Part shown: one piece after another, positions 57,470 to 58,560 of the stretch
Layout of the letters: each line of letters begins with the position of its first letter
Position numbering within the stretch: position 1 is the stretch's first letter
The notes under the pieces: model-generated
Told to the model about the DNA's origin: nothing
Database searches by the model: none
The model's input: only the letters and a program-made list of their open reading frames with translations
Sequence record: ON210138.1
Reading direction: 5' to 3' (one strand)
Source of the DNA: Escherichia phage EC106
DNA length: 64,000 nucleotides
Position numbers and translations under genes: made by a program

Positions 57470-57520
57470 CTTAATCTTACTCTCTATATATAGTTATATA
57501 GTACTATATAGTATCTTAGT
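57470..57520. repeat. AT-rich block with tandem TATATAGT repeats (candidate DNA unwinding element)
   Basis: CTCTATATATAGTTATATAGTACTATATAGTATC: three direct copies in about 35 bp, no ORF. Confidence 0.5.
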
Positions 57521-57539
57521 AACTATCTAGTGGTCTTAA

Positions 57540-58560
57540 TAGCCCCTCTGTATAACCCTTCTAACAAGCCCTCTAACAAGCCTTCTTAACAGCCTATACA
57601 ATCACCTTAGCCATCTCTCTACACCCTCTTAGAAGCCCCTATACACCTCTTAATCTCTAGGTTAGCTATGTGACTCTCTATAGGTGTTCACTAGATATTA
57701 CTAAGCCTCTATATAGACTGTTTTAACAAACTTAACAGGAATATCTTTACAGACCTTATCTCACAAGGTCTAACATGGTACTAACAAGGTATCTTATAAG
57801 CCTGTTTCTACCTGTATTTTTAAAAGACTGTATAGGTAATTATTCAGAATCTTAAAATTTTTATAAAATAGGACTATCAAGTCATTTTTTAGGGTCTTTG
57901 AAGGAACTCAAAAATATCTGTTGAGGGTGTATATCTGCTTGGTAACCCTTAACAGCTCCTTAACACCCCCTTTGCAAAATTTTAAAATATCCTTAACAAT
58001 CTCTTAACAGTTCTCACATCTCCTTAACAACTCTTCAAAGGTCTTAACAGATTCTTAACAGAACTAACAAGGGTTTAACAGTTTCTTAACAGTTGATACA
58101 TAGTCTTTACAGAGGCTTAACAGATGACTAACAAGAGCTAACAGGGATTGGTAACAATACCAATTAGTTAATTTTAAAGAGTTATTTTGTTAAGATAATT
58201 AACAAGTTTCTAACAAGTGTTTAATCTTTTTAACAAGCTATTAACATGGTCACTATCTCTGGTCTTATCGTTCCCTTTCCCTTTCTAGTGATTCCTTAAA
58301 CATACCTCTTAAAAGCTCCCTATAGCTCTTTATAAGCCCTTTTAAGTCTCTTCCTAGTATCTACCCCCCAACTGTACAGATAGCTCTTTATAGAGCTTTA
58401 CAGGAGCTTTTAAGGCTATGTCAAAGACTCTTACAAGGCTTTTACGTGGTCTTAACAGAGATTTAACAAGGGGCTAACAAGGGGCTAACAAGTGCCTTAA
58501 AAGCATAACTGTGTAGGGATTGTTAAGGAGTTGTTAAGAAAATGTTAAGGGGGGCTAGCA
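57540..58560. repeat. iteron array: about 30 same-orientation copies of YTAACAR (CTTAACAG / CTAACAAG), with inverted copies at 58519-58550
   Basis: Clusters at 57549-57590, 57720-57790, 57945-58150 (about 15 copies in 200 bp), 58190-58250, 58450-58500; three reversed copies (TGTTAAG) at 58519-58550; region lacks long ORFs. Confidence 0.7.

What the first reader, a model, noticed from the sequence alone, without database searches (positions are those of the whole stretch)
57470..58560. 1 kb non-coding iteron array (about 30 YTAACAR copies) beside an AT-rich TATATAGT repeat block: candidate replication origin or regulator-binding array
There is no plausible ORF across 57350-59050. Copies of CTTAACAG / CTAACAAG occur in one orientation in clusters (about 15 in 200 bp at 57945-58150), with an orientation switch at 58519-58550, next to three tandem TATATAGT repeats at 57475-57515. 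This layout resembles origins with iterons and an unwinding element; it could also be a binding array for a phage regulator or a packaging site.
Basis: seen in the sequence. Interest (0 to 1): 0.75.

Follow-up and report, generated by a model that had tools for sequence, protein, structure and literature searches.

The report
Phage genome-end repeat with phased heptamers
The "iteron array" is real, but it lies in the already known ~615-bp terminal repeat, the physical DNA end, of a Felix O1-like phage, so it is more likely the signal that tells the packaging enzyme where to cut than a replication origin.

Summary
There are 29 exact YTAACAR copies at 57459-58537 (26 on the + strand, 3 on the - strand). 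That is 24 per 600 bp, against at most 4 anywhere else in the window. No ORF of 40 aa or more lies between 57494 and 59059.

The window is a Felixounavirus. Window 57939-58546 aligns end to end with the experimentally mapped 608-bp direct terminal repeat (DTR) of relative UAB_Phi87. Four other relatives carry exact repeats at both record ends, and these map to window 57941 and 58555. The finding is therefore the concatemer junction: the DTR (57941-58555) plus non-coding flanks of 0.5-0.6 kb between convergent gene blocks.

The new detail is in the heptamers. They keep one helical phase (10.45 bp, R=0.90) across the DTR. They are more conserved than their spacers (95% against 78%). They recur in four Ounavirinae genera. 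Three inverted copies abut the right boundary, which makes the two cut sites mirror images (TGCTW|G..CCC-TTAACA).

The best reading is a terminase recognition and positioning array, analogous to the CCTAAAG arrays of phage T7. Origin function is unsupported but not excluded. The DTR is known; the array appears undescribed. Interest is modest.

The parts
57325..59059 (.). Whole non-coding concatemer-junction region between convergent gene blocks (+ genes end at 57324; - genes end at 59060).
   Evidence: ORF list. A 1.6-1.7-kb syntenic gap is present in Felixounavirus, Mooglevirus and Suspvirus, and a 1.19-kb gap in Kolesnikvirus phiEa21-4. No Rfam match reaches its gathering score and there is no promoter excess.
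57338..57362 (+). Rho-independent terminator closing the + strand gene block.
   Evidence: It is annotated as a terminator at the same place in AYO145A, wV8 and Michonne.
57485..57531 (.). It belongs to a second enriched motif family, TATAG(A/G)G / CTCTATA, and lies about 410-455 bp outside the DTR.
   Evidence: TRF. TATAG/CTATA occurs 25 times in the gap against a mean of 2.2 and a maximum of 8 per 1735 bp elsewhere. The block is conserved with copy-number variation in 11 relatives. It is 82% AT and not the most AT-rich spot in the gap.
57557..57595 (+). Three 12-13-bp units CCTTCTAACAAG: left-flank YTAACAR copies outside the DTR.
   Evidence: TRF and motif map. Whole-unit indels occur among relatives.
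57723..57787 (+). Four further left-flank YTAACA copies (57723, 57732, 57770, 57781).
   Evidence: The block is conserved across three genera.
57928..57940 (.). Invariant block TGTATATCTGCTT immediately outside the left DTR boundary (cut context ...CTGCTT|GG).
   Evidence: Identical in all 12 aligned sequences. It is recognisable in Erwinia phage phiEa21-4 as AAGCAGATATACA on the other strand.
57941..58555 (.). Direct terminal repeat (DTR), about 615 bp, present once here because the assembly is in junction form. The boundary uncertainty is about 2 nt on the left and -9/+2 nt on the right.
   Evidence: The UAB_Phi87 run-off-sequenced DTR aligns end to end to 57939-58546 at 89% identity. The UAB_69 GenBank 'DTR' feature maps to 57939-58557. 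E9, ZX4221, NBEco004 and NBEco005 carry exact 580-651-bp repeats at both record ends, starting 5'-GGTAGCCCTTAACA and 5'-GCCCCCTTAACA. The local alignments stop at 58553. I place the boundary at C58555 by reading the sequence, because the window has six G where the relatives have five.
57949..58144 (+). Main array: 13 YTAACA copies, all on the + strand, phase-locked to the DNA helix.
   Evidence: Best period 10.45 bp with R=0.90. For the 17 + copies in 57941-58260, R=0.88 against a null maximum of 0.80, p<=5e-4.
57946..57977 (+). Left arm of the terminal inverted repeat (CCCTTAACAGCTCCTTAACA...), just inside the left boundary.
   Evidence: Inverted repeats I6 and I7: 32 nt at 78% and 24 nt at 88% complementarity to 58515-58551.
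58147..58164 (.). Small palindrome ATTGGTA-ACAA-TACCAAT inside the DTR, next to an 88%-AT stretch (58163-58202).
   Evidence: Read from the sequence. AT scan. It is present in the UAB_Phi87 DTR.
58188..58246 (.). Second cluster in the DTR: one - copy (58188) and four + copies (58199, 58210, 58230, 58241).
58452..58491 (+). Four YTAACAAG/G copies at exact 11-bp spacing near the right DTR end. The number of units varies among relatives.
   Evidence: TRF reports 100% matches. Indels among relatives are whole 11-bp units: EC6 has one more, AYO145A, wV8 and Michonne one fewer, Sf16 two fewer.
58521..58548 (-). Three inverted copies (TTAACA on the - strand) at 11-bp spacing abutting the right DTR boundary.
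   Evidence: Nearly invariant in 12 sequences.
58561..58606 (.). 22-bp tandem (TTTACGTAACTT...) just outside the right boundary.
   Evidence: TRF. One unit is missing in nataliec, UAB_69 and ZX4221.
58735..58831 (.). Conserved inverted repeat of the CTCTATAAAG / CTTTATAGAGC motif in the right flank (arms 58735-58755 and 58811-58831).
   Evidence: Inverted repeat I2. DNA fold -13.3 kcal/mol, z=-2.3. The outer stem is kept in 12 sequences, but only 2 pairs show compensatory change. Its role is unproven.

Best explanation
The locus is the concatemer junction of a Felix O1-like myovirus (Ounavirinae). It consists of the ~615-bp direct terminal repeat (DTR, window 57941-58555) flanked by 0.5-0.6 kb of non-coding DNA on each side. 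At least the + strand gene block ends in a terminator before it.

The YTAACAR heptamers are the cis-acting recognition and positioning array for the packaging and terminus-generating machinery. That machinery is the large terminase plus an unidentified DNA-recognition partner.

Proposed mechanism:
1. The copies lie on one face of the helix (10.45-bp phase), so a protein oligomer can bind cooperatively along the DNA or wrap it.
2. The copies nearest each boundary point inward on opposite strands, so the two cut sites are mirror images: CTGCTT|GGTARCCC-TTAACA on the + strand and ATGCTA|GCCCCCC-TTAACA on the - strand.
3. One nuclease can therefore nick opposite strands about 615 nt apart.
4. Strand-displacement or fill-in synthesis then duplicates the repeat, so each packaged genome carries a full DTR at both ends. 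This is the classical T7-type model.

Shown: the identity of the region with the DTR, the boundaries, and the phasing, orientation, symmetry and conservation of the motifs.

Inferred: that terminase or a partner binds the array, the polarity of the nicks, and the duplication step.

My confidence that this is the DTR/junction is about 0.95. My confidence that the heptamer array functions in end recognition or packaging is about 0.55.
For: Identity:
- 256 phage records match the region, nearly all Felixounavirus and other Ounavirinae.
- The Bal31 and run-off-sequenced 608-bp DTR of UAB_Phi87 (PMC4837284, Fig. S1) aligns over its whole length to window 57939-58546.
- The UAB_69 record annotates the homologous stretch as 'DTR'.
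- E9, ZX4221, NBEco004 and NBEco005 have exact repeats at both record ends that map to the same two window positions.
- PhageTerm gave 613 bp for Ro111lw (PMC6454146).
- In a 60-record sample, about 10 records start or end within about 60 nt of these boundaries.

Array:
- 21 + copies and 4 - copies lie inside the DTR, 8 + copies in the left flank and none in the right flank.
- Phase coherence is at 10.45 bp, with R=0.90 for the 13-copy main array and R=0.78 for all 21 + copies. For the 17 copies in 57941-58260, R=0.88 with p<=5e-4.
- The same ~10.4-bp phase appears in 11 relatives of three genera.
- Motif columns are 95% conserved against 78% for other DTR columns.
- Indels are whole 11-bp units.
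- The same TGTTAAG array and boundary block are present in Erwinia phage phiEa21-4.
- The array is unique within the 64-kb window.
- Terminal inverted arms bracket the DTR.

Context:
- A large terminase is encoded at 41234-42850.
- T7 has 14 matches to a CCTAAAG-type heptamer pattern in its first 800 bp, 13-bp spacings recurring, in and beside its 160-bp DTR.
Against: - No protein-binding data exist, and no small terminase or other DNA-recognition protein was identified. The 66-aa ORF upstream of TerL is acidic and belongs to a family of unknown function.
- The role of the analogous T7 arrays is itself unsettled (from my memory of the T7 literature; I found no citable paper).
- The right-hand boundary differs by up to 11 nt between the three determinations (58546, 58555, 58557).
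- The termini of this particular phage were not measured. They are inferred from homologues at 86-93% identity.
- Conservation and phasing would equally suit any protein-binding function located at the ends.
Confidence: 0.55

Rival explanations
1. Replication origin. The heptamers would be iterons for a phage initiator, and an AT-rich block melts to start replication. This could hold in addition to the terminal-repeat role.
For: - Direct repeats lie near AT-rich stretches: 57365-57404 is 93% AT, 58163-58202 is 88% AT and the TATATAGT block is 82% AT.
- One perfect DnaA-box consensus, TTATTCACA, lies at 57436 on the - strand.
- In T7, promoters phiOL and phiOR flank the concatemer junction (annotation). 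From memory, they act as secondary origins, so origin and junction functions can be neighbours.
Against: - The unit is a 7-8-bp core with about 30 copies on a helical phase, not a few 17-22-bp iterons.
- No initiator, helicase-loader or any recognisable replication domain is found in the ten flanking genes.
- The DnaA box loses a base in Mooglevirus and Suspvirus.
- The locus lies at convergent transcription, with a terminator after the + block.
- Cumulative GC skew simply follows gene orientation and shows a local maximum, not a minimum, at about 57 kb.
- The densest clusters coincide exactly with the two DTR boundaries, which an origin does not explain.
Confidence: 0.12
2. End-biology other than packaging. 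The array would bind a phage protein that protects the DNA ends after injection, or that synapses or anneals the two DTR copies to form concatemers by recombination.
For: Most copies are inside the DTR, the part that must pair during concatemer formation, rather than beside it as in T7. The one-face phasing over about 600 bp suits a filament or a bridging protein.
Against: Homologous recombination between 615-bp repeats needs no specific motif. The three inverted copies and the conserved blocks placed exactly at the cut sites point to site-specific cleavage. No candidate protein was identified.
Confidence: 0.12
3. Transcriptional regulator array, or a promoter cluster at the first DNA to enter the cell.
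For: TTAACA resembles the -35 hexamer TTGACA. One 10/12 sigma-70-like site lies at 57960-57988.
Against: - There is no excess of promoter-like sites: 9 found against 7.7 +/- 2.8 in shuffles.
- Both neighbouring gene blocks are transcribed towards the region, so outward promoters would be antisense.
- No ORF lies downstream.
- No motif cluster occurs at any other intergenic region in the 64 kb.
Confidence: 0.05
4. Functionless decayed tandem repeat produced by replication slippage in a tolerated non-coding spacer.
For: Unit-number variation occurs among relatives. Degenerate CTWWWHAR octamers fill the whole gap: 43 copies against a mean of 6.2 per 1735 bp elsewhere.
Against: - Motif positions are more conserved than spacers, 95% against 78%.
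- The architecture, the boundary blocks and the helical phase persist across four genera, including an Erwinia phage.
- The gap aligns across genera at 71-75% identity, while the genes to its right do not align at all.
Confidence: 0.05

Closest known systems
Short exact direct terminal repeats of Felix O1-like phages (UAB_Phi87 608 bp, UAB_69, Ro111lw 613 bp; PMC4837284, PMC11350853, PMC6454146)
   Same: It is the homologous sequence, with the same boundaries, the same position between the wV8 gp027 and gp028 homologues, and the same length class (580-651 bp in relatives, about 615 bp here).
   Different: The cited papers report only the existence and length of the DTR. I found no description of the phased heptamer array, of the mirror-image cut sites or of the conserved non-coding flanks. 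The termini of this phage itself were not measured.
Phage T7 concatemer junction: 160-bp terminal repeat with CCTAAAG heptamer arrays (named SRL and SRR by Dunn and Studier 1983, from memory)
   Same: Both have a short non-permuted DTR and a unidirectional heptamer repeated a dozen or more times at about one helical turn, in and beside the repeat. Both regions are non-coding.
   Different: - There is no sequence homology: CCTAAAG at 13 bp in T7, YTAACAR at 11 bp locally and 10.45 bp in phase here.
- The T7 arrays lie mostly outside the repeat. Here 25 of 33 copies are inside.
- Here inverted copies mark the second boundary.
- T7 has phage-RNAP promoters phiOL and phiOR beside the junction and a known small terminase (gp18). 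Neither was found here.
pac/cos sites bound by small terminase (lambda cosB, SPP1 pacL/pacR, HK97 cos)
   Same: These are repeated short binding sites next to the terminase cut site, arranged so that DNA can be bent or wrapped by an oligomer.
   Different: No small terminase is recognisable in this phage group (also stated for Felix O1 in PMC3185647). The array is far larger, about 30 sites over 1 kb. The outcome is exact DTR ends, not cohesive or headful ends.
Iteron-type replication origins (lambda ori, plasmid oriV)
   Same: Both have directly repeated short sequences with AT-rich DNA nearby.
   Different: The unit length, copy number, helical phasing, lack of an initiator gene and coincidence with the physical ends all differ.

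Membership tests
Felixounavirus/Ounavirinae direct terminal repeat (T7-type exact, non-permuted ends) | Homologous over its full length to an experimentally mapped DTR | tested here: met
   The UAB_Phi87 DTR (run-off sequencing, PMC4837284 Fig. S1) aligns over query 1-590 to window 57939-58546 at 89% identity.
Felixounavirus/Ounavirinae direct terminal repeat (T7-type exact, non-permuted ends) | The same sequence is present at both ends of the linear virion genome | tested here: met
   This is met in four relatives. Exact repeats of 580, 591, 628 and 651 bp sit at both record ends and map to window 57941 and 58555. For this phage itself it is not testable without reads.
Felixounavirus/Ounavirinae direct terminal repeat (T7-type exact, non-permuted ends) | Conserved sequence at the two cleavage positions | tested here: met
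   TGTATATCTGCTT|GGTAGCCC and GGGGGC|TAGC are invariant or nearly so in 12 sequences of three genera. The first block is also present in phiEa21-4.
Felixounavirus/Ounavirinae direct terminal repeat (T7-type exact, non-permuted ends) | Large terminase of the DTR-generating clade | tested here: inconclusive
   A TerL is present (phrog_979, Terminase_6N/6C). The clade assignment rests on the published tree (PMC4837284). No phylogeny was built here.
Iteron-type replication origin | A few (3-8) direct repeats of about 17-22 bp bound by an initiator | tested here: not met
   The core is 7-8 bp, with about 30 copies at 11-bp local spacing and a 10.45-bp phase.
Iteron-type replication origin | Initiator gene adjacent to or overlapping the repeats | tested here: not met
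   Nine of the ten flanking ORFs match PHROG families of unknown function and one matches none. No hit in Pfam or PHROGs is to a replication domain.
Iteron-type replication origin | AT-rich unwinding element and DnaA boxes next to the repeats | tested here: inconclusive
   AT-rich 40-mers exist (93%, 88%, 82%). One perfect DnaA box lies at 57436, but it is not conserved in Mooglevirus or Suspvirus.
Iteron-type replication origin | Replication starts there | not testable with these tools
   This needs marker-frequency or origin-trap experiments. GC skew only tracks gene orientation.
T7-type heptamer arrays at a DTR (SRL/SRR) | Unidirectional heptamer repeated 10 or more times at about one helical turn, in or next to a short DTR | tested here: met
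   Here. T7: 14 matches to a CCTAAAG-type pattern in the first 800 bp, with 13-bp spacings recurring, around a 160-bp DTR. This is an analogy of layout only.
T7-type heptamer arrays at a DTR (SRL/SRR) | Sequence homology to the T7 arrays or junction | tested here: not met
   The motifs differ (CCTAAAG against YTAACAR) and so does the placement (outside against inside the DTR).
Small-terminase pac/cos recognition site | A small terminase gene is present | tested here: not met
   No TerS was found by PHROGs or Pfam among the ORFs upstream of TerL. PMC3185647 states the same for Felix O1.
Small-terminase pac/cos recognition site | Specific protein binding to the repeats | not testable with these tools
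   This needs EMSA, footprinting or pull-down.

The most novel reading that the evidence does not exclude
The helically phase-locked YTAACAR array would be the assembly platform of a non-canonical, small-terminase-independent end-recognition complex. This complex would be a conserved, still unannotated Ounavirinae protein that coats one face of about 600 bp of DNA and presents two mirror-image cut sites to TerL. It might also serve as the site where replication or recombination of the ends begins, giving a combined telomere-like element.
Probability: 0.12. Interest if true: 0.6.

Novelty: new member of a known kind. Interest (0 to 1): 0.3.

Why it matters
Felix O1-like phages are widely used for Salmonella and E. 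coli typing, biocontrol and therapy. Most of their GenBank records are nevertheless opened arbitrarily and leave this 1.7-kb gap unannotated.

Fixing the DTR at conserved sequence landmarks (5'-GGTAGCCCTTAACA and 5'-GCCCCCTTAACA) lets any member of the subfamily be oriented and annotated without experiments.

The phased array and the mirror-image cut sites give a concrete, testable packaging signal for a terminase with no recognisable small subunit. That would help in engineering transducing particles or packaging-competent vectors.

This is an incremental gain, not a new kind of element.

Tried and rejected
- Rfam scan of 57000-59500: only weak sub-threshold chance hits.
- Promoter and terminator scan: no promoter excess, and only the left terminator was found.
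- GC-skew profile: it follows transcription direction and is uninformative for an origin.
- DnaA, IHF and GATC searches: one DnaA box, no IHF site and no GATC.
- Flanking-gene domain searches for an initiator or DNA-binding protein: all of unknown function.
- Search for a small terminase next to TerL: none. The 66-aa acidic ORF upstream is an unlikely DNA binder, so I did not spend structure predictions on it.
- UAB_Phi87 GenBank record: it is not opened at the physical ends, so its coordinates could not be used. The supplementary figure was needed instead.
- Hairpin in the right flank as a T7-like priming hairpin: the stability is modest (z=-2.3) and covariation is scarce, so it is left as unproven.
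- IMG/VR scan for three TTAACA at 11-bp spacing: the dense arrays (9 or more copies per 400 bp) are all Felix O1-like contigs. Other hits are unrelated motifs such as TGTGTTAA arrays, so there is no evidence of a wider family.
- Literature searches for a description of the array, or for the T7 SRL/SRR arrays: nothing citable was found.

Full report
**1. What is in the sequence**

The stretch 57325-59059 has no ORF of 40 aa or more apart from a 48-aa TTG ORF at 57347-57493. It lies between a + strand gene block ending at 57324, followed by a terminator at 57338-57362, and a - strand block whose last gene ends at 59060.

- YTAACAR occurs 95 times in the window against 68.6 +/- 7.7 in shuffles. 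Of these, 29 fall in 57459-58537 (26 on +, 3 on -).
- The core TAACA occurs 32 times on the + strand of the gap against 2.7 expected.
- The densest 600 bp holds 24 YTAACA sites. The maximum anywhere else in the 64 kb is 4.
- Twelve neighbour spacings are exactly 11 bp. In the dense block 8 are observed against 0.9 expected, p<=2e-4.
- Three inverted copies start at 58521, 58532 and 58543.
- The TATATAGT x3 block is at 57485-57531.

**2. Where the window comes from**

The region matches 256 phage records, nearly all Felixounavirus or other Ounavirinae, at 88-93% identity for the best. In all of them it is a 1.6-1.7-kb unannotated or barely annotated gap between the homologues of wV8 gp028 and gp027. 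The gap is syntenic in Mooglevirus and Suspvirus. It is 1.19 kb in the Erwinia phage phiEa21-4.

**3. It is the physical genome end**

Bardina et al. (PMC4837284) mapped the ends of the Felix O1-like phage UAB_Phi87 by Bal31 digestion and run-off sequencing, and found a 608-bp direct terminal repeat.
- The sequence printed in their Fig. S1 aligns over its entire length to window 57939-58546 on the reverse strand at 89% identity.
- The GenBank record of UAB_69 annotates the homologous stretch as 'DTR'. It maps to window 57939-58557 (PMC11350853).
- Four further records from other laboratories (E9, ZX4221, NBEco004, NBEco005) carry exact repeats of 580-651 bp at both record ends. All begin 5'-GGTAGCCCTTAACA on one strand and 5'-GCCCCCTTAACA on the other, which corresponds to window 57941 and 58555. 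The local alignments stop at 58553 because the window has one extra G. I place the equivalent C at 58555 by reading the sequence.
- PhageTerm gave 613 bp for Ro111lw (PMC6454146).
- In a systematic sample of 60 matching records, about ten start or end within about 60 nt of these boundaries.

The window therefore shows the junction form: left flank (57325-57940), DTR (57941-58555, about 615 bp) and right flank (58556-59059).

**4. Anatomy of the array relative to the DTR**

Of 33 YTAACA cores, 25 are inside the DTR (21 on +, 4 on -). Eight are in the left flank and none are in the right flank.

Local spacing is 11 bp, but occasional spacings of 9, 10, 20 and 31 bp keep the copies on a single helical phase:
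- The best period is 10.45 bp, with resultant length R=0.90 for the 13 copies at 57949-58138 and R=0.78 for all 21 + copies across the DTR.
- For the 17 + copies in 57941-58260, R=0.88. Random placements reach at most 0.80, p<=5e-4.
- The same ~10.4-bp phase is found in 11 relatives from three genera, despite unit indels. These sequences are related, so they are not independent trials.

The copies closest to each boundary read inward on opposite strands. As a result the DTR is bracketed by inverted arms: 57946-57977 against 58520-58551 at 78% over 32 nt, and 88% over 24 nt. The two cut contexts are mirror images: CTGCTT|GGTAACCC-TTAACA and, on the other strand, ATGCTA|GCCCCCC-TTAACA.

**5. Conservation**

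- In a 12-sequence alignment the blocks at both boundaries are invariant or nearly so.
- Motif columns inside the DTR are 95% identical to the window, against 78% for other DTR columns.
- Length differences in the array are whole 11-bp units.
- The gap aligns between genera at 71-75% identity, while the genes to its right do not align at all.
- phiEa21-4 has the same TGTTAAG/TTAACA array, an extra CTTCTAA array and the AAGCAGATATACA boundary block.
- The flanks contain further conserved blocks. They also hold a second enriched motif family, TATAG(A/G)G / CTCTATA, with 25 copies against a mean of 2.2 per 1735 bp elsewhere. The TATATAGT block belongs to this family.
- A loose CTWWWHAR octamer fills the whole gap: 43 copies against a mean of 6.2.

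**6. Mechanism**

The most economical reading is that the array is the recognition and positioning element for terminus generation and packaging. A protein oligomer binding one face of the DNA would place a nuclease, TerL encoded at 41234-42850, at two symmetric sites. Nicks on opposite strands about 615 nt apart, followed by strand-displacement or fill-in synthesis, would give each genome a complete repeat at both ends. This is the classical T7-type scheme.

Only the DNA features are shown. Binding, nick polarity and duplication are inferred. No small terminase or other candidate binder was found. PMC3185647 makes the same point for Felix O1.

**7. Comparison with known systems**

The DTR itself is already known for this genus. 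The closest analogue for the array is T7. In its record I find a 160-bp DTR and, in the first 800 bp, 14 matches to a CCTAAAG-type heptamer pattern in and beside it, with 13-bp spacings recurring, plus looser copies before the right repeat.

The names SRL and SRR, and the fact that their function is unsettled, come from my memory of Dunn and Studier 1983 and later T7 reviews. I could not find a citable paper in the library.

The differences from T7 are: no sequence homology, arrays mainly inside rather than outside the repeat, inverted copies at one boundary, and no recognisable small terminase.

The locus fails the tests for an iteron origin on unit size and number and on the lack of an adjacent initiator gene. 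The AT-rich DNA and DnaA-box tests are inconclusive. Skew is uninformative. Origin activity cannot be excluded without experiments, and T7 shows that origins and junctions can be neighbours.

**8. Novelty and verdict**

In the searchable literature I found reports of the DTR's existence and length, but none of the phased heptamers, the mirror-image cut sites or the conserved flanks.

The finding is a correct observation of an ordinary, already known genome feature, with an undescribed but unsurprising internal architecture of a kind known from T7. Interest is modest (0.3). Its practical value is in annotating and orienting Ounavirinae genomes, and in providing a defined substrate for studying a terminase that lacks a known small subunit.

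Noticed in passing
window 1-64000: GATC is completely absent from the 64-kb window: 0 observed against about 217 expected from a second-order Markov estimate. CCGG, GGCC and CATG are also depleted. This suggests strong selection against Dam/MboI-type sites.
   Followed up: partly
window 58642-58669; also L010 (Michonne) near its left terminator, L011 (SUSP1) right flank, ZX4221 right terminator: A ~28-bp palindromic element (ATAGGATTCGATAGATTCCTATCTCATAG) is present or absent among close relatives and turns up at different positions in other genera. 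It behaves like a small mobile or recombination-prone insert.
   Followed up: no
window 58874-58922: A 49-bp insertion is found only in this window. It resembles the DTR-internal palindrome GGGATTGGTAACAATACCAATTA (58144-58167) with a nested hairpin inserted. ZX4221 carries an extra plain copy of that palindrome at another right-flank site.
   Followed up: no
window 59231-59314 and 60312-60394: A repeated ~80-bp intergenic element lies upstream of the small - strand genes, and Michonne, SUSP1 and wV8 match both copies. It is reminiscent of the 57-bp and 39-bp intergenic direct repeats reported for Felix O1 (PMC3185647).
   Followed up: no
window 59060-59797: Gene content right of the junction differs from most relatives. 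The 58-aa ORF 59060-59236 has no PHROG or Pfam family. The usual first gene (the wV8 gp027 homologue, 82 aa) may instead be the 82-aa ORF at 60070-60318. The canonical terminator seen in relatives just right of the gap is incomplete here.
   Followed up: no
window 43280-48572: A cluster of 25 tRNA genes lies on the - strand, between the terminase/portal module (39751-42850) and the small early-type genes. This is typical of Felix O1-like phages.
   Followed up: no
L040 6700-6960; L038 13930-14220 (IMG/VR contigs unrelated to Felix O1): Other viral contigs carry their own arrays containing TTAACA. One example is inverted sets of TGTGTTAATTC / GATTAACACA around an AT-rich centre in a 39.6-kb contig. 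These are probably operator or origin arrays of unrelated phages.
   Followed up: partly
L004 (JN225449, UAB_Phi87): The GenBank record of UAB_Phi87 is 87,603 bp and opens next to the tRNA cluster, not at the physical ends described in its paper (87,669 bp with DTR). Record coordinates therefore cannot be used to locate the termini.
   Followed up: yes
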